A stretch of DNA of 64,000 nt. It comes from Escherichia phage vB_EcoM_JN03. Position 1 is the first letter of the stretch, and each line of letters starts with the position of its first letter. The translations under genes were made by a program, and so were the position numbers. Location: the sequence record OR885871. One strand, 5' to 3'. Positions 8,545-48,777 of the stretch are shown one piece after another. The notes under the pieces are model-generated. The model was not told the DNA's origin. It ran no database searches and saw nothing but the letters and a program-made list of their open reading frames with translations.

Positions 8545-8712
8545 TTACTTTTTCTTCAGCTCTTCCAGTTTGGCTTCGATTTGTTCCAGGATGTCTTTAC
8601 CCTTCTGAACAATCACTTCACCGTCTTGCGCGTGTTTACGAAAGACCAGAGCGCCAGCTACGAAGCCGACAACAACGCCAGGAAGCGCGTACACCAACAG
8701 ATCTTGTAACAT
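8545..8712 (-). CDS. small membrane protein (55 aa), below the ORF-track length cutoff
   Basis: Hand-translated: MLQDLLVYALPGVVVGFVAGALVFRKHAQDGEVIVQKGKDILEQIEAKLEELKKK; preceded by TATAAATA motif and followed by hairpin plus T-run. Confidence 0.4.
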   Translation of the reverse strand: MLQDLLVYALPGVVVGFVAGALVFRKHAQDGEVIVQKGKDILEQIEAKLEELKKK

Positions 8713-8740
8713 GATAATATCCTCACTTTATAGGTGAGGA

Positions 8741-8748
8741 TATTTATA
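8741..8748 (-). promoter_or_regulatory. T4-type late promoter motif TATAAATA (minus strand)
   Basis: Exact TATAAATA about 29 nt upstream of small ORF start at 8712. Confidence 0.4.
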
Positions 8749-26423: not shown

Positions 26424-26993
26424 TTATTTTAACACTTCTAACTTCACAACACGACGCAGAAGGTAAACATATTCGCCAGCAGCTTCATGCGTCATATAAT
26501 GGGTAGAAGGTGTGGAATGATTGTTCTGGGTTTCTTTTAATCCAACACGTTCTGCCCAACCATTAATAGAGTTCCCATAGAAACCGATAATCGCGCCAAA
26601 ATAAATGCGCTGGCTTTCTGGCTCTAAAACATAGTTGACAGTGAAACAAATATCAGAACGAATAGACTCCAGTTTCATACCAACACGACCTTCGGAGAAT
26701 TCGTTACGAACATATAAATGACGGAAACGATCGCGCCGCGCTTGTGATGATTCTTCCAATTCTTGTCGGAGTGAAGAAGTTACGTCAATATTAAATGAAA
26801 ATGTTGGATTCTGTAAATCGGAACGGGCCAACTCTAACGCAGATTCAACAACGCGACGGAAATTGATACTTTTACCTGTCAGGCGTTTCACTTCATCTGT
26901 GATTGTTCCAAAAGGGATTTTCGTGGCGCGTTCCCCTTCGTATTTTGCCAATAAAGGAATAATGTGTTTCATGATTGCTGTGTTAATGTGCAT
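26424..26993 (-). CDS. hypothetical protein (189 aa)
   Basis: ORF directly upstream (in transcription sense) of the RNA island. Confidence 0.5.
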   Translation of the reverse strand: MHINTAIMKHIIPLLAKYEGERATKIPFGTITDEVKRLTGKSINFRRVVESALELARSDLQNPTFSFNIDVTSSLRQELEESSQARRDRFRHLYVRNEFSEGRVGMKLESIRSDICFTVNYVLEPESQRIYFGAIIGFYGNSINGWAERVGLKETQNNHSTPSTHYMTHEAAGEYVYLLRRVVKLEVLK

Positions 26994-27309
26994 TCCGGAG
27001 CCTCACCGAATTGATTAAATGTCTCCATTATTATATTGGAGATACGTTTATTGAATATAAACACAGGAATGGCCAATAAAATAATGACAGTGATTATTAA
27101 TAGGTAAAAACTAATTTTCTACAACATCAAGAAACTGTATCTTAACGCGGTGCCCTTCGAGTTGTGAGTGTTAACGAACAACGAGAAGCAGCCTCCATGG
27201 CTGCGGAATGGGACTGCCTGTCAAGGCGGTGTTACGAGCGAGGGCGTCAGCCCCCTCGCGAGTATATTCGAATAAATTAAACGCGCGCGAGCGTTTTGAT
27301 TCCCGTTGG

Positions 27310-27316
27310 CTAAATA
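27310..27316 (+). promoter_or_regulatory. late promoter core CTAAATA upstream of baseplate wedge gene
   Basis: Same heptamer recurs upstream of at least eight plus-strand structural genes. Confidence 0.5.
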
Positions 27317-27356
27317 TCTTCAACACCATATTCAAACTCAGGTGATGGAGATTATC

Positions 27357-29138
27357 ATGGCCACGCAAACAGTTCCTTCACTCGACGTCAGAGCATTTGA
27401 ATACATTATTAAACAGCGAATGAAAGCTGATCCCACCTTTAAAGATTATGACTTTGAAGGTTCTGGTCTTAGTGCGATTATTCGTTTGTTGGCATCTGAC
27501 GCGAACGCCATAGCCTTTATGCAAAACATGCTTAATGGTGAAGGCCATTTGAAGACAGCAAATCAACGTTCAAACGTCGGTTTATCTGCTGCATTTCTTT
27601 CCTACACGCCTGACAACTATCGGGCAGCATACATGTATGTCAACATCAAAGTTACGCCTTATGACGCCAGCACAGCCCCCAATGAGATCATCATGGATCG
27701 GCGCGTAATGTTCGTTGGGGCAAAAGACGGCAGTTCCTACAACTTTACTGTTGAGAAACCAGTGTCAGCAACGTTGACTGCAGACGGTTATTACATGTTC
27801 AACAATGTAAAGTTGGTACAGGGGAATTGGTTGTACAAGACATATGATGTTGAAGGAAGCGCGATTTCAACATATACGATTCCTTCTGGGAATGTCGATA
27901 TCAATCATATGGTCGTGCAAGTACAAGAATCAGAGTCTTCCGACGTTTCGACGACATATCAACGTTACAACAGTCCATTTGATCTGAGCCAATATGCCCA
28001 CCTGTATTTCGTAGAATTGGGTATTGATGGTCTGTATGTGTTTGAATTCGGAGATGGTTATCTTTCGCGTCGAGTAGAAGATGGGAACGTCATATTCCTT
28101 CAATACTTAGAAACTTCTGGTGCTGATGGGAATGATATTACAAGCCTGTCATCAGCGTCATCCATAGGCGGGTTTAACCAGGTCGACGTAGAATTGGTTT
28201 CCGAACGTAGCGCAGGTGGAGACGATCCAGAATCTATTGAGGACACTAAACGGTTGGCTCCTTTAGCTTATCAGGCTGATGGTGCGGCGGTTACAGAAAC
28301 AGATTATGGTGTATTGACTGAAAGGTTATTCTCCAACGTCTCCCGAGCTAAATCATATGGTGGTGACACGCTGTCTCCTCCTGATTCTGGCTATGTTTAC
28401 ATCGCTGTTATACCTTCTGTTGGTGAGACACTTTCGGACGCTGAGAAGGCCGATATCGTTGCTGCTCTGGACAAGTATAATGTGGGATCTATTACCCCCA
28501 AAGTGGTAGACTCCGAGATCACATATATCCAAGTCTCAACGACTATATTTTGGGATCCTACTTCTACAGTCTACGTTGAAGAACAGATGAAAGTTGTTGT
28601 TGGAAACAGTATCGTTAAATGGGGTGAAAATAATCTCGGCGGATTTGACCAATTGTTTGACAAAGAAATATTGCAGGAAGCAATTACAAAAATGGAACGT
28701 TCTATCAACTCGAATATTACTTCAGTTGGTTATAAACGCCATTTCAAACCTGATTATGGAATCTTAGACAGTTTCACATTCAGTTATGGACGAAGTATCA
28801 AACCTGGTTCTGTGAAAATAACGGGGTTCAAACCGCTTCCTGCCGAGGTGGATTTCACTTACTACATGCGCGACGATAATGGCGATCTGAACATGTATAA
28901 AGTGAATAACAATGACACGACAAAAGAGTTTTTAGTTCAAAAAACAGGGGTTGTGGATTATGCAAATGGGGTTGTAGACCTTCAGCAGATCACGGTCTCT
29001 AACTATAACCCTGAAGGGGTGACCATAGTCGTGTTACCGGATGGACTGAACCAGAACATACAGGCTACACAAAACCAAGTATTCAAGATTGGTGATGTGG
29101 TTGTTACGCCAGAGGTGCGCTATGTCCAAAGATCTTAA
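27357..29138 (+). CDS. 6: baseplate wedge protein (T4 gp6-like)
   Basis: Start at MATQTV after GGAG RBS; segment DYDFEGSGLSAIIRLLASDANAIAFMQ matches T4 gp6 N-terminal region DYDFEGSRLNVLCDLLAYN. Confidence 0.7.
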   Translation: MATQTVPSLDVRAFEYIIKQRMKADPTFKDYDFEGSGLSAIIRLLASDANAIAFMQNMLNGEGHLKTANQRSNVGLSAAFLSYTPDNYRAAYMYVNIKVTPYDASTAPNEIIMDRRVMFVGAKDGSSYNFTVEKPVSATLTADGYYMFNNVKLVQGNWLYKTYDVEGSAISTYTIPSGNVDINHMVVQVQESESSDVSTTYQRYNSPFDLSQYAHLYFVELGIDGLYVFEFGDGYLSRRVEDGNVIFLQYLETSGADGNDITSLSSASSIGGFNQVDVELVSERSAGGDDPESIEDTKRLAPLAYQADGAAVTETDYGVLTERLFSNVSRAKSYGGDTLSPPDSGYVYIAVIPSVGETLSDAEKADIVAALDKYNVGSITPKVVDSEITYIQVSTTIFWDPTSTVYVEEQMKVVVGNSIVKWGENNLGGFDQLFDKEILQEAITKMERSINSNITSVGYKRHFKPDYGILDSFTFSYGRSIKPGSVKITGFKPLPAEVDFTYYMRDDNGDLNMYKVNNNDTTKEFLVQKTGVVDYANGVVDLQQITVSNYNPEGVTIVVLPDGLNQNIQATQNQVFKIGDVVVTPEVRYVQRS

Positions 29139-29976
29139 TAATGGACACAACGGGGTTAAGTATGAAACTCCGTTGTTCTACCAGAATGATTTCCCTCTGT
29201 TCATAGAATTTATGGACACGTTCTTCAATTGGTTGTATAGACAGCAGGGGTTCACTCAAGAAGAGATCTTGGCATATCTGGCAGATACGTCTAGTTGGAT
29301 GAATCCTGAGAGTGAAGATTCTCCGGTTAAACAGCTGATTGATTTAAAGGCTGACAAGACCCCAGGCTCAGAGGCCAAGGATTATTTGTCAGATAAATTT
29401 TTGGTCAGAACATTTGAGAACATGATGGCTCTGGATGCCGAAGAACTTTTAGATGCCGACGGAAGGCCGCTACTGTCAATAGAAGATAAGAACAAACAGA
29501 TAGATGACTGGTATAATGATTTTGGTTTCCAACGAACTGTTGATAAATCATTTCAGGAATTTGGTCATTTTATCCCAGTCGGTTCGGATTCTTTATTGAC
29601 GGCCACGGGCGATACGTTCTCTGTTTATATCGAAGGAACGAAACGGAGAACTCTGGATCATCCGCGTTGGCTGAAATTGTTGAAACACATCTATAAAATA
29701 CGTGGAACAAAGAAAGCGATTGAATTGTTCTTTTGGATATATTTCGGTTGTCCAGTCAGCGTCTATTTTACGAAAGAAGACATAGGCGGTCTGGACGGAA
29801 ATTTTGAATGTGACGGCACGACAGGGATGCGTGATGATTACTATTATGATGAATACACTTATGTTATAGGAGTCCCAGGCGACGTATCTGACTTTGAAGG
29901 TGTGTTTGAGCGCGTCTTCCGTCAGCATTTTCATCCTGCTGGATTTACTGTATTCCTAGAAAGCACAAGGAGCTAA
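29122..29976 (+). CDS. putative baseplate-associated protein (284 aa)
   Basis: Start at MSKDLNNGH with GAGGTG RBS; overlaps gp6 stop; position between baseplate wedge and fiber genes. Confidence 0.4.
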   Translation: MSKDLNNGHNGVKYETPLFYQNDFPLFIEFMDTFFNWLYRQQGFTQEEILAYLADTSSWMNPESEDSPVKQLIDLKADKTPGSEAKDYLSDKFLVRTFENMMALDAEELLDADGRPLLSIEDKNKQIDDWYNDFGFQRTVDKSFQEFGHFIPVGSDSLLTATGDTFSVYIEGTKRRTLDHPRWLKLLKHIYKIRGTKKAIELFFWIYFGCPVSVYFTKEDIGGLDGNFECDGTTGMRDDYYYDEYTYVIGVPGDVSDFEGVFERVFRQHFHPAGFTVFLESTRS

Positions 29977-29978
29977 AA

Positions 29979-31169
29979 ATGGCCGATTTCCTGAGTCAAT
30001 ATACAGGTCAGCAGATAGATCAGATATTGGGTTCTGTTGACGACAAAGTAAGTAAAAATGACGTTATTAACGATTTTGAAGTTAACGACCCATTGTTTCC
30101 ACCATCTGCTCGCCTGACATATGAGTTGAAAAGATCTGTTGACACAATCAATGATACTCTGGCCAACAAAGTTATTCGTACAGATAGTGGTGAACAAACA
30201 ATCAATGGCAAAAAGACTTTCAATGCGTTGTTGGTGACCAATGGGGGCATACAAGTTCCCGCCGGAAAATCCGTTTCAATCACAGATGAACCAACGAACT
30301 CGACAGATGGTGTTAACCTGAGCATGTTGAGAAAGCATGGCGTCAGTGAAGACACTACCCCGCCTGGTTCTGGTTTGGCTGGGGAGTTGTTGACATCCGG
30401 ATATTACAAATTCAATTTGGACTTCACCAGGTTGTCTGCGTATACCGGACCAACGTTGCCGACTTCAGTTCCAGTACAAACAGATTCTGGAGCGCGTTAT
30501 TGGACAATGACTGCATTTTTTGATGCGTTGTTTGCAGACAACCGATTTAATGGATATGTGACAACGACAGCGTATGACGCAGATATGCTGAGTCTAGAAT
30601 CCCAGATTAATAACATCAACACGTCGTTGAACGGGAAAGTCAACACCTCGACTTACAACACTAAGATGGCGTCATTGGATTTGAGTATCTCCAATATCAA
30701 TACGTCTCTGGGTAATAAAGTCGAGGTCAGCACGTACAACACGAAGATGGCATCTCTGGATAACAGCATCAGTTCTCTTTCCAGTGATAAAGTTAGTGTA
30801 TCAACGTATAATGCCAAGATGACCTCTATCGACAATAGTTTGGGGAACGCCGTTTATCGTACCAAAACGAATTTGTCGTCATACACGGTTTCGGCTTCTG
30901 GAACGACGGCTCTTCCAGATTTTGATTTGGTGAACCTTTGTCAAATACTGGTAACTGCGCAATGGGGGATAGGTAACGTTGTTGACACATATCGAGTAAC
31001 CATAACTCGTGACGGAACGATCAAATCAGAGTTGTTAGTTCAGAAAAGTACGAGTGGTACAGTGACGTTCACAGGGTCTGTGGTGGGCGGTAAATTGAGA
31101 ATTTCCGTTGTTAATGCGAATACAACAACTGCTTGTTCTGTTGATTATTCTATTGCAGCTTCTTTCTAA
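29979..31169 (+). CDS. tail fiber protein with three tandem repeats
   Basis: Fiber-type N-terminal segment; repeats VNTSTYNTKMASLDLSISNINTSLGNK x3, also visible as ~60-nt DNA repeats. Confidence 0.6.
   Translation: MADFLSQYTGQQIDQILGSVDDKVSKNDVINDFEVNDPLFPPSARLTYELKRSVDTINDTLANKVIRTDSGEQTINGKKTFNALLVTNGGIQVPAGKSVSITDEPTNSTDGVNLSMLRKHGVSEDTTPPGSGLAGELLTSGYYKFNLDFTRLSAYTGPTLPTSVPVQTDSGARYWTMTAFFDALFADNRFNGYVTTTAYDADMLSLESQINNINTSLNGKVNTSTYNTKMASLDLSISNINTSLGNKVEVSTYNTKMASLDNSISSLSSDKVSVSTYNAKMTSIDNSLGNAVYRTKTNLSSYTVSASGTTALPDFDLVNLCQILVTAQWGIGNVVDTYRVTITRDGTIKSELLVQKSTSGTVTFTGSVVGGKLRISVVNANTTTACSVDYSIAASF
30590..30850 (+). repeat. three tandem ~60-nt direct repeats inside the tail fiber gene
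   Basis: Repeated ...STYNTKMASLD...SISNINTSLGNK coding units. Confidence 0.55.
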
Positions 31170-31171
31170 AA

Positions 31172-31211
31172 CTAAATACCCCTAGATGACATGAATACAT
31201 TTAGGGGTATT
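31172..31211 (+). promoter_or_regulatory. late promoter CTAAATA fused to a 10-bp 5'-UTR inverted repeat whose 3' arm carries the Shine-Dalgarno sequence
   Basis: AATACCCCTA ... TAGGGGTATT, ATG at 31216. Confidence 0.5.
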
Positions 31212-31215
31212 ACAA

Positions 31216-34200
31216 ATGGCCAACAAACCAACACAGCCTCTTTTCCCTTTGGGTTTAGAAACTTCTGAGTCTTCGAACATAAAAGGCTTCAACAACTCCG
31301 GCACTATTGAGCATTCCCCTGGTGCCGTAATGACATTTCCTGAAGATACTGAAGTTACAGGTCTTCCATCTTCTGTGCGTTACAATCCTGATAGTGATGA
31401 ATTTGAAGGTTATTACGAAAACGGTGGTTGGTTGTCTTTGGGGGGCGGTGGAATACGCTGGGAAACGCTCCCTCACGCTCCCTCTAGCAATTTGTTAGAA
31501 GGTCGTGGCTATCTCATTAATAATACCACAGGGACATCTACAGTGGTTCTCCCTTCCCCTACGCGTATTGGGGATTCCGTTACTATTTGTGATGCTTATG
31601 GGAAATTTGCCACTTACCCATTGACCGTGTCTCCTTCTGGAAATAATTTGTATGGCTCCACTGAAGACATGGCTATAACAACTGATAACGTATCAGCAAC
31701 GTTTACTTGGTCTGGACCTGAACAAGGTTGGGTTATCACATCCGGCGTCGGTCTTGGTCAAGGTCGTGTGTACAGTCGTGAAATATTTACACAAATTTTG
31801 GCGTCTGAAACAAGTGCTGTCACTCTCAATACTCCACCAACAATCGTGGACGTGTATGCTGACGGAAAACGTCTTGCGGAATCCAAATATTCATTAGATG
31901 GGAATGTAATCACTTTCAGTCCTTCTTTGCCAGCCAGCACAGAACTTCAGGTGATTGAATATACTCCTATTCAATTGGGTAATGGCGGTGGTTCTGGTTC
32001 TTCTACAATTACCTGGGTCTATAATGGGGGTTCAGCGATTGGCGGTGAAACCGAAATCACGTTAGACATCGTTGTTGATGATGTTCCAGCCATTGATATA
32101 AACGGAAGTCGCCAGTATAAAAATCTGGGGTTCACATTCGATCCATTAACCAGTAAAATCACTCTTGCGCAAGAACTGGATGCGGAGGATGAAGTTGTTG
32201 TAATTATCAATGGAACGCCAAACATCTATAATCAAATTGATTATACTTTGCGGGAAGTGGCTCGTGTAACCAATGTTAAAGATACAGAGGTCATTTATTT
32301 TAGTGTTGGTGCTGTGTTAAGTGGATATAAAGTTATCTATGATAAAGTAACACAGAGATCATATTTTATTCCAGAGTTACCGACTGGAACCACGGCGGTC
32401 AGCCTTAGTTCTTCGGCTGTACTTGTGCATTCTGCTGGTAGTGTTGATCTGGGCGCATTAGCTGTATCTCGTGAAGAATACGTAACATTGTCTGGGACAT
32501 TTGATTCTGGTGCTGTCATCAATGTTAAAAATGAATTACTCACCCACACGGATGGAAAGTATCGCTGGGATGGGGAATTCCCCAAAATCGTTCCGGATGG
32601 TTCAACTCCGGCGACGTCTGGTGGCATTGGTATTGGGTCATGGGTTGCAGTAGGTAATGAAGCAATACGTGTAGAGCTTGCAAGTCCTGCAAGTGGGTAT
32701 GGTGCTGAAATGGTAGCACTGAAACAGCCAGTTTCTGGCTCAAAAGAGCGCACTGTTTACGACTGGATTGCTGATATCATAACTGCAAAGGATGGGGATA
32801 GTATTGTTGCAGATGGTATTAATAATGATGCTGTTGGTATAAACGCTTTCCTACCTGTACTGGCAGCAGCGCAGCGTGAACTCCTTTTAGTTCCTGGCGT
32901 TTATTTGATAAACGATGACATTACAATAGATATTCCGGTAACGATCCAGCCAGGTGCAATCCTGAAGCCTAGAAATGGTGCGCAACTTACGTTCAAATCA
33001 GAGATAAGAGCTGGATGCTATAAAATATTCGACACCGAGGATGATTTTTACACGTCACCTGTCGCCGTGCCATCTGTAAAGATAGCAAAAGGCGGAGTAA
33101 AACCAGAGTGGTTTGGTGCTGCTACGGTGAGTTCTTATGATGAGATTGCATCAGCGGTTAACTGCTCTCCGGCATTCATGAAAGCGTGGAGGGCAACAAC
33201 TGGGGAATATACCGCAAACGTTACGGCATCATACAGGCAGTCTGAGTACATGCACTCGTATATAGACCTATCCGCTGGAAAATACCGCATGGATAAAGAG
33301 GTATTCCTTGGTCACACTGATTTCACACCAACAACTGTAAGATACAACAAAAACGGTGGTGGCGTTATAGGGCAAGGTGCAGGTTTATCTATTCTGGTAT
33401 TCACTGACAGCGAGTATGCTGGGAACGCATATTTTACCGCAAATGATATGTCAGGAGAAATGCACACGTTTAAAGGATTTAAATGTACAGCATTCGATCC
33501 ATCAAAAACAGGCACTGCTCAGTATGAAACAAAAGTTGGCGCAATGATTCTGATTGGTAGCGCTGATTCCATAACTACTTCTGATTTATGGGCCGCTGGA
33601 GCGACTACTGTCGTTGCAGATACTAATGGCTTTGGTAGAGGTGGTGTTGGCATTCAGTTTGATTCTCTTGTAGACCATCAATTTTCTGACCTGTTAGTTG
33701 AACATTGTGTGCATGGGGTGGCATTCAGTTCATGCATTTCAACAGGAAATAACATTAAGGGGTTTGCAAACAAAATTAGTGATTTGTCATTCGGAAACTA
33801 CATCCCTGACTGGCCTCAAATGGTATCACAAACAACTAAGAATACTATAGGGGTTAACGGTTTCGAGTCTAAATTCTGCCTGAATAACCCAATAACATTT
33901 GGCACATATGACAACATGGTTGATATAACCGGTGTTGTTGTTGATGGTCGTGCAGAGTCCTCACTGTCAGTCGTTACCAACCGTGTGATTGGATTTGGTG
34001 TTGGTGGTGGTGTGTCAGGCACTATTTCTGGGTCTGCCAGGAATCTGCTTTTAGGACTAATTGCAGATTTCGGGGTCTCATTTGCAGGAAGGGACGGCGC
34101 ACCATTAAGACTTAATTTCGATATCGAGAATATTGTTGGGGCCTCATCTTCTGAAAACGCCGTTGTCGCTGTTGATAAATCTGACTCCAATTTAATTGGT

Positions 34201-34509
34201 TCGATTGGTATCTCATCATCTGTGTTTCCTATATTGAGGTCATCTAGCACCACCACCACAATTGAAATAAATGCTAGCGACATAACACTAACAACAGGAA
34301 GCCCTTCTGGAACAAATGCAATCTTATGTAAAGGTGGTAACTTAAACGTCACGGCTTTAAAGATATCAAACTCAACAGGAATAACTGGGTTAGTCTACGC
34401 AGAAAATAGTTCTGTATTACTACCTACACACACTATAAGCCCAACAAGAGCAGTGACAAAAGTTGGCGGAGCGACTATTAAATCGTACTCTATAACTGAT
34501 TTTGCTTAA
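31216..34509 (+). CDS. tailspike protein (1097 aa), paralog 1
   Basis: Shares conserved module (EVIYFSVG...YKVIYDK...SVDLGALAVSREEYVTL...KYRWDG...GSTPATSGG) with three downstream paralogs; divergent C-terminus. Confidence 0.65.
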   Translation: MANKPTQPLFPLGLETSESSNIKGFNNSGTIEHSPGAVMTFPEDTEVTGLPSSVRYNPDSDEFEGYYENGGWLSLGGGGIRWETLPHAPSSNLLEGRGYLINNTTGTSTVVLPSPTRIGDSVTICDAYGKFATYPLTVSPSGNNLYGSTEDMAITTDNVSATFTWSGPEQGWVITSGVGLGQGRVYSREIFTQILASETSAVTLNTPPTIVDVYADGKRLAESKYSLDGNVITFSPSLPASTELQVIEYTPIQLGNGGGSGSSTITWVYNGGSAIGGETEITLDIVVDDVPAIDINGSRQYKNLGFTFDPLTSKITLAQELDAEDEVVVIINGTPNIYNQIDYTLREVARVTNVKDTEVIYFSVGAVLSGYKVIYDKVTQRSYFIPELPTGTTAVSLSSSAVLVHSAGSVDLGALAVSREEYVTLSGTFDSGAVINVKNELLTHTDGKYRWDGEFPKIVPDGSTPATSGGIGIGSWVAVGNEAIRVELASPASGYGAEMVALKQPVSGSKERTVYDWIADIITAKDGDSIVADGINNDAVGINAFLPVLAAAQRELLLVPGVYLINDDITIDIPVTIQPGAILKPRNGAQLTFKSEIRAGCYKIFDTEDDFYTSPVAVPSVKIAKGGVKPEWFGAATVSSYDEIASAVNCSPAFMKAWRATTGEYTANVTASYRQSEYMHSYIDLSAGKYRMDKEVFLGHTDFTPTTVRYNKNGGGVIGQGAGLSILVFTDSEYAGNAYFTANDMSGEMHTFKGFKCTAFDPSKTGTAQYETKVGAMILIGSADSITTSDLWAAGATTVVADTNGFGRGGVGIQFDSLVDHQFSDLLVEHCVHGVAFSSCISTGNNIKGFANKISDLSFGNYIPDWPQMVSQTTKNTIGVNGFESKFCLNNPITFGTYDNMVDITGVVVDGRAESSLSVVTNRVIGFGVGGGVSGTISGSARNLLLGLIADFGVSFAGRDGAPLRLNFDIENIVGASSSENAVVAVDKSDSNLIGSIGISSSVFPILRSSSTTTTIEINASDITLTTGSPSGTNAILCKGGNLNVTALKISNSTGITGLVYAENSSVLLPTHTISPTRAVTKVGGATIKSYSITDFA

Positions 34510-34511
34510 CA

Positions 34512-34540
34512 AAAACCCCGCTTCGGTGGGGTTCTTATTA
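34512..34540 (+). terminator. rho-independent terminator
   Basis: CCCCGC-TTCG-GTGGGG hairpin followed by T-rich run. Confidence 0.6.
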
Positions 34541-34571
34541 TACCTTTGTTCATAAATTTTATTAGTTCAGA

Positions 34572-34608
34572 CTAAATACCCCATATTGGTCATCCTTTAT
34601 GGGGTATT
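34572..34608 (+). promoter_or_regulatory. late promoter CTAAATA plus 11-bp 5'-UTR inverted repeat
   Basis: AATACCCCATA (34575-34585) and TATGGGGTATT (34598-34608), ATG at 34612. Confidence 0.5.
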
Positions 34609-34611
34609 ATC

Positions 34612-36525
34612 ATGATTTCTCAATTCAATCAACCACGCGGCTCCACTTCCATAGAAGTTAACAAACAATCTATCGCTCGAAATTTCGGTGTCAAAGAAGA
34701 CGAAGTCATTTATTTCACTGTCGGTATTGATCTCAGCGGATTTAAAGTAATTTATGATGAGTCTACCCAACGGGCTTATTCTCTTCCTTCGGGTATTGTT
34801 TCAGGAACGATTGCGATAAGTCTGAACGAACAAGCCATCCTTACTCATTCTTCTGGCTCTGTTGACCTTGGGGAATTAGCAGTAAGCCGCGAAGAATATG
34901 TGACTTTACCTGGTTCTTTTAATTTCGGTCATACCATTAATGTGAAAAATGAACTTCTTGTTCACGATGATAAAAAATATCGATGGGATGGTTCTTTGCC
35001 AAAGGCAGTTGCCGCTGGTTCTACACCCGATAACTCAGGCGGTGTTGGTTTAGGTGCATGGTTGAGTGTTGGTGATGTATCATTGAGAGCGGATTTGGCT
35101 AGTGGCACACTTGGTAAAGGTGCGAATCTTTTGACATATAAGTCACAAGTATCAAACTCGGTTGCTATAAGCCAACAAATTAAAAATAGTGAAAGGGTTT
35201 CTGTTTTTGAGTATTTGGCTAAGCCTATTCCTGGTTTTGATAATGCATCAGCATTCGCTGCTATGAAAGCTGATGCTGAAGCAGGTGTTGTAATAACAGT
35301 ACCTTCAGGAGTATATGAAACATCTGAACCACTGAGATTCACAAAACCTGTTCAAATATGGTTTGATGTAGGAGTGCGAATAAAACTTACATCTGGTGCA
35401 CATGACCATGTTGTGGAAATAGATTTACGTGGACAAGATGAGGGGTATTGGGGGTATAAACCTTTCTTTGGTGGTGGCAGGGTTATTCTTGATGGTCTTG
35501 GTCATGCTAAGTACGGGCTATCACTTCGTGGCGTAATATCTGGTGGTTTTCCTGGTATTCAAGCAACCAATATAACAACTGCTGGGTTATATCTGGCTTG
35601 GACTCAATGCTGTACATACACTGATTTTATTTGCTCTAATAACGTGGAGGTTTTCACAACAAAACCCCTGCACGGTATTTTAGTAGATAAAGATAACAAT
35701 CCGTCAAATCCACGTGGTACATCATGCGATATCTTTATTAACCCATGTGTAGAGCACACTGCGGGTGATGGGTTTGTAGGACTAAGCCTGATGAACTCAA
35801 TGGTTATAAACGGAACAATCGAGGGAAACCTTGGCGCAGGCATTTCATTGGGGCATCCTACAGATAATACTTACACTGCACTGGGTAATACATTTCTTGG
35901 TATTGACCTTGAGGTGAACACGCTAACTGATATTGTGATTAACAAGTTTTCACACATGAACGAGTTCATAGGACTCAAATCAGGTTATTCATCTCCATCA
36001 GTTCAGGTCAGAGGTTTTCGTAACTATTTCTCTGGAGGTACTGTTAGCGATTTCGACTTCAGGCCAGATAGCCATGACAACCACGTACAGGATGTAACAC
36101 TTTTAGCTGAGTTTCCTGTTGTTAATGATGAAGGGATAAGAAACACTTATGAAAGATTATGGAATCTTAACAATGCTCAAGTTAACGTAAGCACAAACCC
36201 TGTTAACACAAGAAGCAATCAGCCTATAGCGGGAGGTGAGACAGTAACGTTAGACCCATATAAAGCATCCTATGTTGTATGCACCGCAACAGGAACACCT
36301 ATTAATATAGTTTCTGCCACCAAAAAATTAGATGGAGCAAGAATAGATTTGACAATTCACAATGCATCAGGAACAGATTCATTAGTCATTAACTGGGCAT
36401 CAGATATTAGAGTTGGCAATTTTACTCCTCCACCAGCAGGTAAACATAAGGGGTTATCACTAAGATATGATGCTAATTACGGTTATTGGACTGTAGTTGG
36501 TGTTGGACTGGACGCTTTATCGTGA
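34612..36525 (+). CDS. tailspike protein (637 aa), paralog 2
   Basis: Conserved module near N-terminus; divergent C-terminal domain. Confidence 0.65.
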   Translation: MISQFNQPRGSTSIEVNKQSIARNFGVKEDEVIYFTVGIDLSGFKVIYDESTQRAYSLPSGIVSGTIAISLNEQAILTHSSGSVDLGELAVSREEYVTLPGSFNFGHTINVKNELLVHDDKKYRWDGSLPKAVAAGSTPDNSGGVGLGAWLSVGDVSLRADLASGTLGKGANLLTYKSQVSNSVAISQQIKNSERVSVFEYLAKPIPGFDNASAFAAMKADAEAGVVITVPSGVYETSEPLRFTKPVQIWFDVGVRIKLTSGAHDHVVEIDLRGQDEGYWGYKPFFGGGRVILDGLGHAKYGLSLRGVISGGFPGIQATNITTAGLYLAWTQCCTYTDFICSNNVEVFTTKPLHGILVDKDNNPSNPRGTSCDIFINPCVEHTAGDGFVGLSLMNSMVINGTIEGNLGAGISLGHPTDNTYTALGNTFLGIDLEVNTLTDIVINKFSHMNEFIGLKSGYSSPSVQVRGFRNYFSGGTVSDFDFRPDSHDNHVQDVTLLAEFPVVNDEGIRNTYERLWNLNNAQVNVSTNPVNTRSNQPIAGGETVTLDPYKASYVVCTATGTPINIVSATKKLDGARIDLTIHNASGTDSLVINWASDIRVGNFTPPPAGKHKGLSLRYDANYGYWTVVGVGLDALS

Positions 36526-36570
36526 CATCACCAACATTATAAAATGATGTTGTTGCTGTTAAAATTTAAA

Positions 36571-36598
36571 TAACCCCGCTTTGGCGGGGTTCTTGTTA
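36571..36598 (+). terminator. rho-independent terminator
   Basis: CCCCGC-TTTG-GCGGGG hairpin plus T-run. Confidence 0.6.
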
Positions 36599-36629
36599 TA
36601 CCTTTGTTCATAAATTTTATTAGTTCAGA

Positions 36630-36667
36630 CTAAATACCCCATATTGGCAAATCCTTTATGGGGTATT
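36630..36667 (+). promoter_or_regulatory. late promoter CTAAATA plus 11-bp 5'-UTR inverted repeat
   Basis: Near-identical to the cassette at 34572-34608. Confidence 0.5.
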
Positions 36668-36672
36668 TTCAA

Positions 36673-39438
36673 ATGACCAGAAATGTAGAAGAATTATTCG
36701 GCGGCGTAATCACAGCTCCTCACCAGATTCCTTTCACGTATAAATCAAATGTCGGTGGAGAAACTTTCCTTTCTTTGCCGTTCCATCCCGTCACTGGTGT
36801 TATCACAATCAACGGTGGTATGCAAGTTCCGTTAGACAACTTTGAAATCGAAGGAAATACGTTGAATCTCGGGCGCGCATTGTCCAAAGGCGATGTTGTG
36901 TATTGCTTATTCGATAAAATTCTTTCGCCAGAAGATACAGCCAAAGGTATCCGCATATACAAATTTCAGGCCGTGGGAGGTGAAACCGAGTTCACTCCTG
37001 ATTTCACATCCTATGGTGTCCAATCTCTTTATATCGGTGGCGAGTACAAAACACCCGAAATTGAATATTCCTATAACAGCACGACAGGGAAAGTGTCTTT
37101 GCAAACTGCACTGACTGCAGGCGTTTGGGTAGTCGCTGAAATGTCTGTTAAACAACCGAATATCAGTCCGGCGTTTGACCGAAGTATTCAAGAAATCGCC
37201 CGTTCTGCTAATGTAAAAGACTCTGAAGTCATCGTTAGTACGGACACCATATCTTTGTTGGATGGGAAGAAAGTTGTTTATGATATAGCGACGCAAACCA
37301 GTTATGGTTTACCAACCATTCCTGATGGTTCTGTCATTTCTTCTGTATCTGCTGGGAAATTGAATTACAACCCAGGTGATGTGCAGGTTGATTTGTTGCC
37401 TTTAGAAGATTCATTTATTAATGTGATAAACACTCTGGGGCGCAATGATGGTGCCAAGTATATTGGAGAATGCCATTCTGTTGCTGATCTCAGGAATACT
37501 GAACCCACTATGGATGGACAACGCATTATTCTTAAGCAACACACTGCGGGTACTCTTCTTGGCGGAGGGGTATTCCGTGCGTTAATTGATGGTACAGGAA
37601 AGACTGATAATAACGGTACTGTGATCAAAACTGTTGGCGGCGCGGCATGGTTACGTGTTAATGCTGATAGAGTTAACCCATTCATGTTTGGTGCTTTGGG
37701 TGGTTCTAATGATGATACTATTCCAGTACAATCTTGTGTGGATAGTGGTAAGGCCACACAATTAACTGATGCACATTACGTTAGCAATATCCAGTTAAAA
37801 TATAATACGTCGTCTATTTATGGGTCTGGATTACATTACTCAAGGTTGCATCAGTTGCCTTCTGCTACTGGGAATTGTATTACCATAAAAGATACATGCT
37901 CCCTTATTGTATTAGACGCCTTTGGGGTATATGGCACAGGTGCACAACAAGGCATGCCATTTACTGCGGGCACAACAGGTATCTATGTAGAAACTCCTTC
38001 AGGTCTCTCAGCCGATTATCCGTTCCACACTACCGCAGACCCAAGACGCGACTTGTGTATTTCTAAGGTCCATATAGCAGGTTTTGATGAATATGGGTTA
38101 AATATTGATAGTGGTAACTTTAGTGTTACTACAGATTCTCTTTTAGTCAACCACATCAATCAGGTGGGTGTCCGTTGTGCTACTACTGATTGGACTTGGA
38201 CAAATATCCAGGTTAATACCTGCGGTAAACAATGTCTGGTTCTTGATGGTTGTGGTAATGGTCGTATTATTGGCGGTAAATTCATTTGGGCTAACTGGCA
38301 ACCTTATGGTACAGTAGGACAGTTCCCAGGCATTACTATTAATAACAGCCAGAATATGGTTATTAATGGTATTGAGGTACAAGATTGTGGCGGGAATGGC
38401 ATTGAGATTAGCGATTCATATTCAATTTCCATGAACGGATTGAACACCAATCGTAACGGCATCAATGCTAACAACACTTTCTACAACATCGTATTTAACA
38501 AAAGCGATGCAGTTATCAACGGATTCGTAGGACTCAATTATGCCGCGAATAGTGGTTCAGGTGCTAACTCTAGTGCAGGCAATTTTCAGTTCCTGTCTAA
38601 TGATTGTAGTGTCACCATTAATGGTGTGGTTGAGACTGGTTATATGGGCATTAACTTTATTGGTGATAACAATATTATCAACCCCACCAATTCCGACCTG
38701 AGCATTAACGGATTGGTTAATTATTCCAAGACTGGTTTGCAAACCATGAACGAGACCCCTACATTTGATGGTGTTAGCACTACACCTGTTTATGTAAGTG
38801 TCCCATCTTCTGTAGGGCAAGTAAATGGTCTGAGACTATCACAAGCCAACAAAGATAAATTACTGTATTCAAGAACAGCAGGTCCAGAAGGTATTACCAT
38901 GGCTGCTGTTGTAGTACCCACCATATCTGGAGCTGAAGTATTTAACTTCATGGCCATTGGTTCAGGGTTTAGTGATACATCCAACAGTCTTCATCTTCAA
39001 TTAGTTATAGACGCTTCTGGAAAACAAACAATTGCTTTGCTATTGGGGGGCGATGGTACAACCCAAATTTTATCTGGGGATTTACCTAACGACCTTAAAC
39101 TACAAAGTGGTGTACCATATCATATAGCTATTGGTGCTAAACCTGGATATTTCTGGTGGAGTATTCTTAATATTCAGACGGGTAAGAGAATCAGACGGTC
39201 ATTCCGAGGCGCTTATTTAGCCGTACCATTTAATTCTATATTCGGATTAACTTCTTCATTAACATTCTTCTCGGATAGCAATGCTGGTGGGGATGCTTGT
39301 TCTGGGGTTGGTGCTAAAGTGTATGTTGGTATGTTCTCTTCTGAGAACGATTATGTAGCTTCACGATACTACAACCTGATTAATCCTGTAGACCCTACTA
39401 AGTTAATTAGTTACCGTATATTGGATTCTTCTATTTAA
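36673..39438 (+). CDS. tailspike protein (921 aa), paralog 3
   Basis: Start set at MTRNVEE (36673) because the 36658 ATG lies inside the hairpin arm; conserved module about 190 aa in. Confidence 0.6.
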   Translation: MTRNVEELFGGVITAPHQIPFTYKSNVGGETFLSLPFHPVTGVITINGGMQVPLDNFEIEGNTLNLGRALSKGDVVYCLFDKILSPEDTAKGIRIYKFQAVGGETEFTPDFTSYGVQSLYIGGEYKTPEIEYSYNSTTGKVSLQTALTAGVWVVAEMSVKQPNISPAFDRSIQEIARSANVKDSEVIVSTDTISLLDGKKVVYDIATQTSYGLPTIPDGSVISSVSAGKLNYNPGDVQVDLLPLEDSFINVINTLGRNDGAKYIGECHSVADLRNTEPTMDGQRIILKQHTAGTLLGGGVFRALIDGTGKTDNNGTVIKTVGGAAWLRVNADRVNPFMFGALGGSNDDTIPVQSCVDSGKATQLTDAHYVSNIQLKYNTSSIYGSGLHYSRLHQLPSATGNCITIKDTCSLIVLDAFGVYGTGAQQGMPFTAGTTGIYVETPSGLSADYPFHTTADPRRDLCISKVHIAGFDEYGLNIDSGNFSVTTDSLLVNHINQVGVRCATTDWTWTNIQVNTCGKQCLVLDGCGNGRIIGGKFIWANWQPYGTVGQFPGITINNSQNMVINGIEVQDCGGNGIEISDSYSISMNGLNTNRNGINANNTFYNIVFNKSDAVINGFVGLNYAANSGSGANSSAGNFQFLSNDCSVTINGVVETGYMGINFIGDNNIINPTNSDLSINGLVNYSKTGLQTMNETPTFDGVSTTPVYVSVPSSVGQVNGLRLSQANKDKLLYSRTAGPEGITMAAVVVPTISGAEVFNFMAIGSGFSDTSNSLHLQLVIDASGKQTIALLLGGDGTTQILSGDLPNDLKLQSGVPYHIAIGAKPGYFWWSILNIQTGKRIRRSFRGAYLAVPFNSIFGLTSSLTFFSDSNAGGDACSGVGAKVYVGMFSSENDYVASRYYNLINPVDPTKLISYRILDSSI

Positions 39439-39443
39439 AAATA

Positions 39444-39468
39444 TACCCCTCTTCGGAGGGGTCTTTAC
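39444..39468 (+). terminator. rho-independent terminator
   Basis: CCCCTC-TTCG-GAGGGG hairpin plus TCTTTACT. Confidence 0.5.
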
Positions 39469-39489
39469 TAGAAAAACAATGAGGTACTT

Positions 39490-41535: not shown

Positions 41536-41540
41536 TATAA

Positions 41541-41568
41541 AAACCCCGCTAATGCGGGGTTTTATTTC
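41541..41568 (+). terminator. rho-independent terminator
   Basis: CCCCGC-TAAT-GCGGGG perfect hairpin plus TTTTATTT. Confidence 0.65.
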
Positions 41569-41589
41569 TATCTGTTTGTTGGCTGTATA

Positions 41590-41596
41590 CTAAATA
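41590..41596 (+). promoter_or_regulatory. late promoter core CTAAATA
   Basis: 34 nt upstream of ATG at 41630. Confidence 0.45.
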
Positions 41597-41629
41597 TCTC
41601 TATAAAATGGCACTCGATGGAGCATCAAA

Positions 41630-46468: not shown

Positions 46469-46520
46469 ATAATGTTGAAAGGTGGGCGTAAAGCCCACCA
46501 AACCAATAGAGGATAAAAAT

Positions 46521-46769
46521 ATGCGTGGAGTGAAAGTACAGGGGCACGCATCCATGTTGAGAAGCAGTTCTTGCCCTGGCGCGATTATTTGCACCGATCA
46601 CGCCGCTGGCATGGCTGCATTGCAAGCCCGTCAACGCAATGAAACTCGTGAAGCCACCATTGTTGAACAATCAAACCAGATATCTAATCTGGAGGCGACA
46701 ATCAAAATGATGGCCGAAAAGTTGGGGATCGAAATCCCCGAAGGAGGTCAGAATGGCGACGCAAGCTGA
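46521..46769 (+). CDS. hypothetical protein (82 aa)
   Basis: Start at MRGVKVQ with GAGGA RBS. Confidence 0.35.
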   Translation: MRGVKVQGHASMLRSSSCPGAIICTDHAAGMAALQARQRNETREATIVEQSNQISNLEATIKMMAEKLGIEIPEGGQNGDAS

Positions 46770-48105: not shown

Positions 48106-48112
48106 CTAAATA
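48106..48112 (+). promoter_or_regulatory. late promoter core CTAAATA
   Basis: 24 nt upstream of ATG at 48136. Confidence 0.45.
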
Positions 48113-48135
48113 CCTTCAAAATTGAGGGTAAAGTC

Positions 48136-48777
48136 ATGGCTACTTCAAAATATTTCAACTATACAGCACATCAAGGTACTCAAAAATTAATTGATGACTT
48201 GGTGGTCGAGATGATACAATTGCGTGGGATTGACGTCAAGTATATCCCACGTTCTATTGTTGAAAAATACCCAATTTTAAACGAGGCCGAACACAAATTC
48301 GACCAAGCGTTTGACATCGAAGTGTATATGCAGGATTATCAAGGCTTCAACACACAGATGTGGGAAAAGTTCGGCGGTATCCAATTACAAGATGAAGTGA
48401 CCTTCACTATTGCTCGTCGTCGTTTTTCAGAAGTTATTGGTAATGGTCCAGGCCTTGAACAAATGCCTCAAGAAGGTGATTTGATATATCTGCCTATGGC
48501 TAACAAAATATTTAAAGTGAATAACCCGAACAACGATGAAGAATTCATGCAATTTGGGAAATGGTACACATATTCCCTACCATGTACGTTGTTCCAATAC
48601 GGTAACGAAGATTTCGATACAGGTGTATCTGAAATAGACGATATCGATAAACGATTGCAGGATCTGGAAGGAGACGGTGTGTACAAAGACGCCAGCCTGC
48701 AAACGGATAACCAATTTGCGGACGAAATAGAGAAAGATCTTTCGCCCAATAAAATGAAGATAGACTTCGGGGAATAA
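48136..48777 (+). CDS. 14: neck protein (T4 gp14-like)
   Basis: EGDLIYLPMANKIFKV matches T4 gp14 EGDLIYFPMDNSLFEI. Confidence 0.6.
   Translation: MATSKYFNYTAHQGTQKLIDDLVVEMIQLRGIDVKYIPRSIVEKYPILNEAEHKFDQAFDIEVYMQDYQGFNTQMWEKFGGIQLQDEVTFTIARRRFSEVIGNGPGLEQMPQEGDLIYLPMANKIFKVNNPNNDEEFMQFGKWYTYSLPCTLFQYGNEDFDTGVSEIDDIDKRLQDLEGDGVYKDASLQTDNQFADEIEKDLSPNKMKIDFGE

What the first reader, a model, noticed from the sequence alone, without database searches (positions are those of the whole stretch)
31172..36667. Three tailspike genes share a late-promoter plus 5'-UTR hairpin cassette
Upstream of the genes at 31216, 34612 and 36673 the sequence CTAAATACCCC is followed by a 10-11 bp inverted repeat. 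Its 5' arm overlaps the promoter and its 3' arm (TATGGGGTATT) contains the only Shine-Dalgarno-like G-run, 3-5 nt before the ATG. Read-through transcripts from upstream would sequester the SD, while transcripts starting at the promoter would lack the 5' arm and be translatable. This is the arrangement described for T4 gene e and soc, here apparently reused for each tailspike.
Basis: partly seen in the sequence, partly recalled or inferred. Interest (0 to 1): 0.6.

Follow-up and report, generated by a model that had tools for sequence, protein, structure and literature searches.

The report
Late promoter hidden in ribosome-site hairpin
In this Vi01/CBA120-like phage, three tailspike genes and at least five other late genes each have a late promoter inside one arm of an RNA hairpin that hides the ribosome-binding site, an arrangement known from phage T4 that probably lets only late-promoter transcripts be translated.

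Summary
CTAAATACCCC occurs exactly at 31172, 34572 and 36630. Each copy is followed by a 10-14 bp inverted repeat whose 3' arm holds the GGGG Shine-Dalgarno, ending 3-4 nt before the ATG. Predicted hairpins are about -19 kcal/mol (z -4.7 to -6.2).

It is not a tailspike cassette. The window is a Kuttervirus (Ackermannviridae). The same design precedes a fourth exact motif copy (19466-19456, minus strand) and the gp6, gp14 and two small genes. The fourth tailspike gene (39490) lacks it.

In the CBA120 genome, 12 of 30 TAAATA-led genes pair the promoter-proximal segment with their own SD. Swapped pairs do so in 8% of cases (permutation 0/2000). These 12 include the endolysin and the RuvC-like resolvase. 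A Dickeya phage homing-endonuclease gene inside the DNA polymerase gene has the design too. These are functional counterparts of T4 e, 49 and I-TevI.

The hairpins persist across seven genera, with compensatory changes and sense-strand G·U pairs. Predicted cost of opening the SD/AUG region is 18-20 kcal/mol in read-through RNA and 6-8 in promoter-initiated RNA.

Verdict: a T4-type late-only translation gate, not described for this family in the searched literature and untested experimentally. No early read-through into the tailspike genes is evident, so its purpose there is unclear.

The parts
31172..31182 (+). Late-promoter motif CTAAATACCCC upstream of TSP4. It begins 3 nt after the stop codon (31167-31169) of the upstream baseplate or tail-fibre gene.
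   Evidence: positional enrichment of CTAAATA
31175..31211 (+). TSP4 leader hairpin. The 5' arm is 31175-31188, the loop 31189-31197 and the 3' arm 31198-31211. The SD GGGG is at 31204-31207 and the ATG at 31216.
   Evidence: -19.1 kcal/mol, z -6.2; conserved in 28 sequences from 5 genera
34514..34533 (+). Intrinsic terminator after TSP4. It forms the first part of the 79-nt repeat 34511-34589.
34572..34582 (+). Late-promoter motif CTAAATACCCC upstream of TSP3.
34575..34608 (+). TSP3 leader hairpin. The 5' arm is 34575-34585 and the 3' arm 34598-34608, with a small inner GG/CC stem. The SD GGGG is at 34601-34604 and the ATG at 34612.
   Evidence: (-19.6 kcal/mol, z -4.7)
36572..36591 (+). Intrinsic terminator after TSP3. 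It forms the first part of the second copy of the 79-nt repeat, 36569-36647.
36630..36640 (+). Late-promoter motif CTAAATACCCC upstream of TSP2.
36632..36668 (+). TSP2 leader hairpin. The 5' arm is 36632-36643 and the 3' arm 36657-36668. The SD GGGG is at 36660-36663 and the ATG at 36673.
   Evidence: (-19.1 kcal/mol, z -5.9)
19436..19466 (-). Fourth exact CTAAATACCCC (19466-19456) with its hairpin. The 5' arm is 19462-19452 and the 3' arm 19446-19436, 11 bp including one U·G. The ATG is at 19433. The gene encodes a 149-aa protein with an ADP-ribosyltransferase-like domain (CBA120 orf229 homologue).
   Evidence: (-17.2 kcal/mol, z -3.8)
27310..27359 (+). gp6 baseplate-wedge leader. CTAAATA is at 27310-27316, the 5' arm ATCTTCA at 27316-27322 and the 3' arm TGGAGAT, which contains the SD, at 27346-27352. 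The ATG is at 27357.
48106..48138 (+). gp14 neck-protein leader. CTAAATA is at 48106-48112, the 5' arm TACCTTCA at 48111-48118 and the 3' arm TGAGGGTA (SD) at 48123-48130. The ATG is at 48136.
   Evidence: (-13.6 kcal/mol, z -5.6)
22277..22313 (-). Leader of a 77-aa gene (CBA120 orf225 homologue). TAAATA is at 22311-22306, the 5' arm AATAGATCT at 22309-22301 and the 3' arm AGGTCTATT at 22288-22280, overlapping the SD AGGAGGT. The ATG is at 22279.
   Evidence: (-8.6 kcal/mol, z -3.1)
8710..8748 (-). Leader of a 55-aa gene (CBA120 orf249 homologue). TATAAATA is at 8748-8741 and abuts the upstream stop codon. The 5' arm is 8744-8734 and the 3' arm GTGAGGATATT (SD) is 8726-8716. The ATG is at 8712.

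Best explanation
These are T4-type late-only translation gates. (C)TAAATA is the -10-like element read by the phage's gp55-type late sigma factor. The bases from within that element to about 5-10 nt beyond it form the 5' arm of an RNA hairpin. The 3' arm is the Shine-Dalgarno region of the gene that follows. Any RNA that starts further upstream contains both arms, so the ribosome-binding site is locked in a helix of about -19 kcal/mol and the gene is poorly translated. This applies to read-through from the preceding gene, leakage through the terminators, or early and antisense transcripts. RNA started at the embedded late promoter begins inside or after the 5' arm, cannot form the helix, and is translated. 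Each gated gene is therefore expressed essentially only from its own late promoter. Shown here: the sequences, the predicted structures and their significance, site-specific complementarity, conservation and compensatory change, and the kinds of genes involved. Inferred: that (C)TAAATA is the late promoter, that transcription starts about 6 nt after it, and that the hairpin represses translation in vivo.
For: (1) Six window leaders fold far better than shuffles, with z from -3.1 to -6.2 and 0 of 200 shuffles as stable. Two more, gp6 and the orf249 homologue, show the same pairing.
(2) In the whole CBA120 genome, 30 annotated genes have TAAATA 18-80 nt upstream of the start. In 12 of them the promoter-proximal 17 nt pairs with their own SD region at -10 kcal/mol or better. 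The figure is 8% for swapped promoter/SD pairs and 6% for control genes; 0 of 2000 permutations reach the observed mean or count.
(3) CTAAATA behaves as a positioned signal. Of its 25 copies in CBA120, 17 lie 10-75 nt upstream of a same-strand start, against 1.1 expected. CBA120 is annotated with gp55, gp33 and gp45 homologues (PMC3184105).
(4) The hairpins are conserved with structure-preserving change across genera. The TSP4 leader was compared in Kuttervirus, Agtrevirus, Limestonevirus, Taipeivirus and Miltonvirus, and the RuvC leader also in Nezavisimistyvirus and Vapseptimavirus. Compensatory changes in the RuvC leader include C-G to G-C at the base just after TAAATA in SKML-39, A-U to G-C in phiMAM1 and A-U to U-A in T751. 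The endolysin and gp6 leaders also show changed arms.
(5) The wobble pairs in the predicted stems are G·U on the sense strand. In 6 of the 8 hairpin leaders in the window, the sense fold is clearly more stable than the antisense fold, by 2.5-5.8 kcal/mol; two are within 0.6; one favours antisense by 1.3. This points to RNA rather than DNA.
(6) The predicted energy to open the SD-AUG region is 20.3, 18.0 and 18.9 kcal/mol in read-through RNA, against about 7.8, 7.7 and 5.7 in RNA started 6 nt after TAAATA, for TSP4, TSP3 and TSP2.
(7) The same design precedes the endolysin (Muramidase plus PG_binding domains), the RuvC-like resolvase and an HNH endonuclease gene lying inside the split DNA polymerase gene of phage PP35. 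These are functional counterparts of T4 e, 49 and I-TevI. For those T4 genes the mechanism is experimentally documented (PMC3014915; PMC2988022).
Against: No transcription start sites, timing data or translation assays for any Ackermannviridae phage were found. The promoter identity and start position therefore rest on analogy with T4. At the tailspike genes the classical purpose is not evident: the upstream genes are themselves late, terminators already precede TSP3 and TSP2, and early-type TTCAAT-N14-TATAAT promoters in the window lie almost entirely on the other strand. Some late leaders have no such hairpin (VrlC-like 41591, gp18 52357, the orf230 homologue at 18986), and neither does TSP1. 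CTAAATACCCCATA also occurs in other genera without a complementary 3' arm, so the C-run is partly intrinsic to the promoter. For the 77-aa gene at 22279 the model predicts no difference between read-through and late RNA.
Confidence: 0.6

Rival explanations
1. The hairpins act mainly as transcription insulators. They would be weak intrinsic terminators or pause sites that stop RNA polymerase coming from upstream just before the start codon, and the SD sits in the stem only because the stem is G-rich.
For: The 3' arms are followed by or include U-rich runs, such as GGGGUAUUUUC at TSP2 and the endolysin and orf171 leaders of CBA120. Each tailspike gene is otherwise built as a promoter-gene-terminator unit.
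Against: The terminator scan did not flag any of these hairpins, but it did flag the true terminators 40-60 nt upstream of sites 2 and 3. In the stable fold the UAUU(U) run is paired with AAUA of the promoter, so no free U-tract is left. The TSP4 stem is followed by ACAAAUG. Loops reach 9-13 nt. The SD lies in the 3' arm in every case, even when the arm sequences differ completely.
Confidence: 0.1
2. The hairpins are translational-coupling devices. A ribosome finishing the upstream gene would melt the 5' arm and free the SD, so that the downstream gene is translated from polycistronic RNA only when the upstream gene is translated.
For: At TSP4, at the ADP-ribosyltransferase-like gene and at the 55-aa gene, the promoter motif starts 0-7 nt after the upstream stop codon.
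Against: At TSP3, TSP2 and gp14 the upstream stop codon is 60-300 nt away, with a terminator in between. gp6 opens its operon downstream of a divergent intergenic region. A terminating ribosome would reach only the first few pairs of the 14-bp TSP4 stem; this last point is inference.
Confidence: 0.08
3. Transcription really starts upstream of the stem, because TAAATA is not the -10 element or the start lies elsewhere. The hairpin would then be a 5'-terminal stem-loop that stabilises late mRNA or tunes translation down in all transcripts.
For: No start sites have been mapped for this family. Some late leaders of abundant structural proteins lack the hairpin.
Against: (C)TAAATA closely matches the T4 late element TATAAATA, and the phage is annotated with a gp55 homologue. 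The motif's fixed position 29-55 nt before starts fits a promoter. In Vibrio phage VAP7 the 5' arm lies upstream of CTAAATA, yet it would still be excluded from a promoter-initiated RNA. A stem of -19 kcal/mol over the SD of virion proteins would be costly if it were present in every mRNA.
Confidence: 0.07
4. The inverted repeat is a DNA-level element, such as an operator for a dimeric regulator or a cruciform that modulates late-promoter opening, rather than an RNA structure.
For: One arm overlaps the promoter. Autorepression by protein binding over a late promoter is known for T4 I-TevI (PMC2988022).
Against: Arm spacing varies from 4 to 17 nt. Arm sequences beyond AATA differ among sites. 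Stems contain G·U pairs, which would be A·C mismatches on the other strand. Sense folds are mostly more stable than antisense folds.
Confidence: 0.04
5. The shared cassette at TSP3 and TSP2 exists chiefly as a homology block for recombinational exchange of tailspike modules, and the hairpin is incidental. This could hold alongside the main explanation.
For: There is a 79-nt repeat, 95% identical, that includes the terminator and the promoter. The same leader precedes tailspike genes of 204-921 aa in other phages. Exchange of receptor-binding domains by recombination is documented (PMC11721090).
Against: This does not explain the inverted symmetry, the SD in the 3' arm, or the same architecture with unrelated sequences at non-tailspike genes.
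Confidence: 0.08
6. Chance or base composition. The promoter's C-run is trivially complementary to a G-rich SD.
For: CCCC against GGGG gives 4 bp for free. CTAAATACCCCATA occurs without a partner arm in some leaders.
Against: Complementarity extends to 10-14 bp. Own-versus-swapped permutation gives 0 of 2000. Shuffle z-scores reach -6.2. Orthologues show compensatory substitutions.
Confidence: 0.02

Closest known systems
Phage T4 genes e (lysozyme), soc and 49: a late promoter embedded in an RBS-sequestering hairpin (PMC3014915)
   Same: A TATAAATA-type late promoter lies in the DNA that encodes the 5' strand of a helix sequestering the SD or AUG. Long transcripts are poorly translated, and late-promoter transcripts lack the 5' strand. 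Functional counterparts in this family, the endolysin and the resolvase, carry the same design.
   Different: In this phage the element is (C)TAAATA followed by a C-rich tail. The design is used at about 40% of candidate late leaders (12 of 30 in CBA120). It also occurs at genes inside late operons (gp6, three tailspikes, gp14), where no early read-through is evident. None of it has been tested experimentally.
T4 I-TevI, I-TevII, I-TevIII and segB, and Aeromonas phage Aeh1 mobE: homing-endonuclease RBS hairpins with a late promoter (PMC2988022)
   Same: The HNH endonuclease gene orf176 of Dickeya phage PP35 lies inside the split DNA polymerase gene. It has CTAAATA followed by a stem that covers its SD.
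   Different: This case is in a related genome, not in the window. Neither the endonuclease nor its regulation has been tested.
The published 'unique regulatory motif' CTAAATAcCcc of Vi01-like phages (quoted in PMC7283392; attribution to the 2012 Viunalikevirus genus proposal is from my own recollection)
   Same: It is the same 11-mer, and all four exact copies in the window are instances of it.
   Different: In the paper read here the motif is only listed with its genome positions. Its pairing with the downstream SD was not mentioned there, and no other searched paper holding the motif deals with this family.
Intrinsic (rho-independent) terminators
   Same: Both have a G+C-rich stem followed by a U-rich sequence, in an intergenic position.
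   Different: The hairpins were not flagged by the terminator scan. Their U-run is paired with the promoter's A-run, their loops are long, and the SD is always in the 3' arm.

Membership tests
T4-type late-promoter-embedded RBS-sequestering hairpin (e / soc / 49 / I-TevI class) | The SD and/or start codon is sequestered in a stable helix in transcripts that begin upstream. | tested here: met
   Predicted helices of -13.6 to -19.6 kcal/mol cover the SD at TSP4, TSP3, TSP2, the ADP-ribosyltransferase-like gene and gp14. The predicted opening cost is 13-20 kcal/mol in read-through RNA. This is prediction only.
T4-type late-promoter-embedded RBS-sequestering hairpin (e / soc / 49 / I-TevI class) | A gp55-type late promoter lies within or next to the 5' strand, so that late transcripts lack that strand. 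| tested here: inconclusive
   In sequence the feature is present: (C)TAAATA overlaps the first 3-5 nt of every 5' arm, and the arm ends 5-10 nt after it. Motif position is strongly non-random. Promoter activity and the start site are inferred from T4 and have not been mapped.
T4-type late-promoter-embedded RBS-sequestering hairpin (e / soc / 49 / I-TevI class) | The phage encodes the late transcription machinery (homologues of gp55, gp33 and gp45). | tested here: met
   CBA120 is annotated with orf120 as gp55, orf084 as gp33 and orf163 as gp45. This is also stated in PMC3184105 and PMC3121705. It is an annotation in a close relative, outside this window.
T4-type late-promoter-embedded RBS-sequestering hairpin (e / soc / 49 / I-TevI class) | The gated gene lies on longer transcripts that start at early or middle promoters. 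| tested here: inconclusive
   This is plausible for the minus-strand genes at 19433, 22279 and 8712, which lie among early-type TTCAAT-N14-TATAAT promoters. It is also plausible for the CBA120 endolysin and RuvC genes, which sit among replication and nucleotide-metabolism genes. It is not evident for TSP4, TSP3, TSP2, gp6 or gp14: their upstream genes are late, terminators are present, and no early-type promoter was found on that strand.
T4-type late-promoter-embedded RBS-sequestering hairpin (e / soc / 49 / I-TevI class) | Translation of long transcripts is demonstrably reduced relative to late transcripts. | not testable with these tools
   This requires reporter fusions, toeprinting or ribosome profiling.
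Intrinsic terminator | A short G+C-rich stem with a 3-8 nt loop, immediately followed by a free U-tract. | tested here: not met
   None of the leader hairpins was listed by the scan, while the four true terminators after the tailspike genes were.

The most novel reading that the evidence does not exclude
In Ackermannviridae the T4 gate may have been generalised from a timing device for a few late genes in early regions into a standard part of late-gene expression units. At the tailspike genes, terminator, late promoter and SD-hiding hairpin together would make each gene a context-independent, portable module. Its output would depend only on its own promoter, which would allow tailspike genes to be swapped between phages without disturbing expression or stoichiometry. 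The C-rich tail of the family's signature motif CTAAATAcCcc would then be maintained partly as an anti-SD arm.
Probability: 0.25. Interest if true: 0.55.

Novelty: new member of a known kind. Interest (0 to 1): 0.4.

Why it matters
It gives the first mechanistic reading of the conserved CTAAATAcCcc motif of Vi01-like phages. It also predicts which genes are restricted to late-promoter expression: the endolysin, the resolvase, a probable ADP-ribosyltransferase, the baseplate protein gp6, the neck protein gp14 and three of the four tailspikes. These phages are being engineered by tailspike swapping and reporter insertion. For that work the practical point is that the roughly 45-nt leader is a functional unit. 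Constructs that keep the 5' arm but are driven from an upstream promoter are predicted to be poorly translated, and deleting the 5' arm should release the block. The finding also extends the known reach of a classical T4 regulatory device to another family, and to late operons where its purpose is not yet explained.

Tried and rejected
- Rfam, with gathering thresholds on the whole window and E-value mode on 31100-36750, found only tRNAs and sub-threshold hits on the terminator. No known RNA family matched the hairpins.
- A sigma-70 promoter scan of 26800-46700 showed no enrichment (43 found, 47 expected), so it could not identify an upstream early promoter.
- A search for the family's early-type motif TTCAAT-N14-TATAAT found good matches almost only on the minus strand.
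- Literature searches for transcription-start or transcriptome data, or for any description of the hairpin in Ackermannviridae, returned nothing relevant.
- MAFFT plus RNAalifold on orthologous leaders misaligned indel-bearing arms and undercounted compensatory pairs. The per-sequence folds are more informative.
- I considered a reverse-orientation late promoter in the 3' arm and rejected it. The reverse complement reads GAAAATACCCC at TSP2 and TGTAATACCCC at TSP4, not CTAAATA.
- I did not build a covariance model, because any model trained on these hairpins would be circular.


Full report
**What is there**

- CTAAATACCCC is exact at 31172, 34572 and 36630.
- Each copy is followed by an inverted repeat: 31175-31188 with 31198-31211, 34575-34585 with 34598-34608, and 36632-36643 with 36657-36668.
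- The 3' arm contains the only Shine-Dalgarno-like run (GGGG) and ends 3-4 nt before the ATG at 31216, 34612 and 36673.
- As RNA the leaders fold at -19.1, -19.6 and -19.1 kcal/mol, with z-scores of -6.2, -4.7 and -5.9. None of 200 dinucleotide-preserving shuffles folds as well.
- Sites 2 and 3 sit inside a 79-nt direct repeat (95% identical) that begins with an intrinsic terminator.

**Identity of the window**

The region matches Kuttervirus phages such as CBA120, SFP10 and Det7 at 94-97% identity over its conserved parts. By comparison with the CBA120 annotation, the genes are:
- TSP4 at 31216
- TSP3 at 34612
- TSP2 at 36673
- TSP1 at 39490
- a VrlC-like baseplate protein at 41630

gp6 and two further baseplate or tail-fibre genes lie upstream.

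**The feature is not specific to tailspikes**

A fourth exact CTAAATACCCC lies on the minus strand at 19466-19456. It has an 11-bp stem with one U·G pair that covers the SD of a 149-aa gene whose product has an ADP-ribosyltransferase-like domain.

Scanning every TAAATA that is followed by a start codon found the same architecture with different arm sequences:

| Gene | TAAATA site | 5' arm / 3' arm |
|---|---|---|
| gp6 | 27310 | ATCTTCA / TGGAGAT |
| gp14 | 48106 | TACCTTCA / TGAGGGTA |
| 77-aa gene | 22311, minus strand | AATAGATCT / AGGTCTATT |
| 55-aa gene | 8748, minus strand | AATATCCTCAC / GTGAGGATATT |

TSP1 has no such promoter or hairpin. The leaders at 41591, 52357 and 18986 have little or no pairing.

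**Genome-wide test**

I rebuilt the CBA120 genome from five fetched pieces.
- Thirty annotated genes have TAAATA 18-80 nt upstream of the start.
- In 12 of them the 17 nt starting inside the motif pair with the gene's own SD region at -10 kcal/mol or better.
- Swapped promoter/SD combinations reach that level in 8% of cases, and genes without the motif in 6%.
- None of 2000 permutations reached the observed mean or count.

The complementarity is therefore site-specific and not a by-product of a C-rich promoter meeting a G-rich SD. CTAAATA itself is a positioned signal: 17 of its 25 copies lie 10-75 nt upstream of a same-strand start, against 1.1 expected.

**Which genes carry it**

In CBA120 the 12 are TSP4, TSP3, TSP2, gp6, gp14, orf229, orf171, orf225, orf223, orf249, orf102 and orf087.
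- orf102 is the endolysin, with N-acetylmuramidase and peptidoglycan-binding domains.
- orf087 is a RuvC-like Holliday-junction resolvase.
- In Dickeya phage PP35, an HNH endonuclease gene lying between fragments of the DNA polymerase gene has CTAAATA followed by a stem over its SD.

These are functional counterparts of the T4 genes e, 49 and I-TevI. [quoted passage not shown] A late promoter located in the 5' strand region produces translatable RNA (PMC3014915; PMC2988022).

**Conservation and covariation**

The TSP4 hairpin is present in all 28 sequences examined, from Kuttervirus, Agtrevirus, Limestonevirus, Taipeivirus and Miltonvirus. The inner stem pairs differ between genera: CCCCTAGATG/CATTTAGGGG, CCCCTAG/CTAGGGG and CCCCTAATG/CATTAGGGG.

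The RuvC leader keeps its stem in seven genera with true compensatory changes:
- ATAC...GTAT becomes ATAG...CTAT in SKML-39.
- CCCATAAC/GTTATGGG becomes CCCGTAAC/GTTACGGG in phiMAM1.
- AAC/GTT becomes ATC/GAT in T751.

In Vibrio phage VAP7 the 5' arm lies upstream of CTAAATA rather than downstream. A promoter-initiated RNA would still lack it.

The endolysin and gp6 leaders behave likewise. The wobble pairs in the predicted stems are G·U on the sense strand. Six of the eight hairpin leaders in the window fold clearly better in sense than in antisense, by 2.5-5.8 kcal/mol. Two are within 0.6, and one (the 55-aa gene) favours antisense by 1.3. This argues for a sense-strand RNA structure rather than a DNA operator.

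**Mechanism**

At T4 late promoters, transcription starts about 6 nt after TATAAATA; this figure is from my own knowledge of T4. [quoted passage not shown] If the same holds here, the late RNA retains only 1-5 nt of the 5' arm.

| Gene | Opening SD-AUG, read-through RNA (kcal/mol) | Opening SD-AUG, RNA started 6 nt after TAAATA (kcal/mol) |
|---|---|---|
| TSP4 | 20.3 | 7.8 |
| TSP3 | 18.0 | 7.7 |
| TSP2 | 18.9 | 5.7 |
| ADP-ribosyltransferase-like gene | 20.5 | 7.3 |
| gp14 | 13.0 | 4.4 |

The promoter assignment, the start position and the translational effect are inferences. I found no start-site mapping or expression data for any member of the family.

**What does not fit neatly**

For the gated genes on the minus strand, and for the endolysin and resolvase, early read-through is plausible. 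They lie among early-type promoters or replication genes.

For the tailspikes, gp6 and gp14 it is not evident.
- Their upstream neighbours are late genes.
- TSP3 and TSP2 are already preceded by terminators.
- No early-type or enriched sigma-70-type promoter was found on that strand.

There the gate may insulate each gene so that it is expressed only from its own promoter, or it may act as a safeguard against stray transcripts. Weaker alternatives are a terminator-like insulator, translational coupling (the promoter starts 0-7 nt after the upstream stop codon at three sites), a 5'-terminal stabiliser if the start lies upstream, or a DNA-level operator. CTAAATACCCCATA also occurs in other genera without a complementary arm, so the C-run is at least partly intrinsic to the promoter.

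**Comparison with what is known, and novelty**

The mechanism is that of T4 e, soc, 49, I-TevI and Aeh1 mobE. The motif CTAAATAcCcc is already listed as a signature of Vi01-like phages (PMC7283392). In the papers searched, its pairing with the SD is not mentioned, and a 2024 review of the family contains no occurrence of 'promoter', 'transcription' or 'terminator'. Rfam has no matching family.

I classify it as a new member of a known kind. It is well supported by sequence and comparative evidence and untested experimentally. It is of moderate interest because of how widespread it is: about 40% of candidate late leaders. Its use inside late operons is also unexplained.

Noticed in passing
window 39441-39492: The TSP1 gene has no CTAAATA. 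Its upstream region is a terminator hairpin (39445-39462) immediately preceded by TAAAAATA, which is one mismatch from the T4 late consensus TATAAATA. If that were a weak late promoter, RNAs started there would lack the terminator's 5' arm and escape termination.
   Followed up: no
window 34511-34589 and 36569-36647: A 79-nt direct repeat (95% identical) comprises a terminator, an A+T-rich spacer and the late promoter. The same leader precedes tailspike genes of 204-921 aa in other Ackermannviridae. It may serve as a homology block for tailspike exchange.
   Followed up: partly
window 36658-36675: An in-frame ATG at 36658 lies inside the 3' arm of the TSP2 hairpin, 15 nt upstream of the start at 36673 that CBA120 annotates. 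The ORF lister therefore reports a 926-aa rather than a 921-aa product.
   Followed up: no
L003 (Dickeya phage PP35) about 5500-5537, minus strand: The HNH endonuclease gene orf176 lies between fragments of the DNA polymerase gene. It is preceded by CTAAATACTCTTTAACCACGGTGAAGGAG, whose stem hides the SD. This is the same context as T4 I-TevI.
   Followed up: partly
L041 (Vibrio phage VAP7) about 100-152: In the RuvC leader the 5' arm AAGCCCTCTA lies upstream of and overlaps CTAAATA, rather than following it. The geometry differs but the predicted logic is the same.
   Followed up: no
L002 8135, L003 9214, L004 7914 and L005 8330 (all minus strand): Homologues of CBA120 orf230 in four other phages (three genera) carry CTAAATACCCCATA with no complementary 3' arm. 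The C-rich tail is therefore partly a promoter feature in its own right.
   Followed up: partly
window 5259, 8500, 12919, 21488, 23845 and 27030 (minus strand) and 16875 (+ strand): Matches with 0-1 mismatch to the family's early-type promoter motif TTCAAT-N14-TATAAT lie almost all on the minus strand. There are 27 matches at up to 2 mismatches, against 11 expected.
   Followed up: partly
window 18984-19433, minus strand: The 149-aa product of the gated gene has an ART-PolyVal ADP-ribosyltransferase-like domain (Pfam E = 2e-10). It may be a virion-packaged, late-made modifying enzyme analogous to T4 Alt.
   Followed up: no
window 22667-23962, minus strand: There is a cluster of four tRNA genes.
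   Followed up: no
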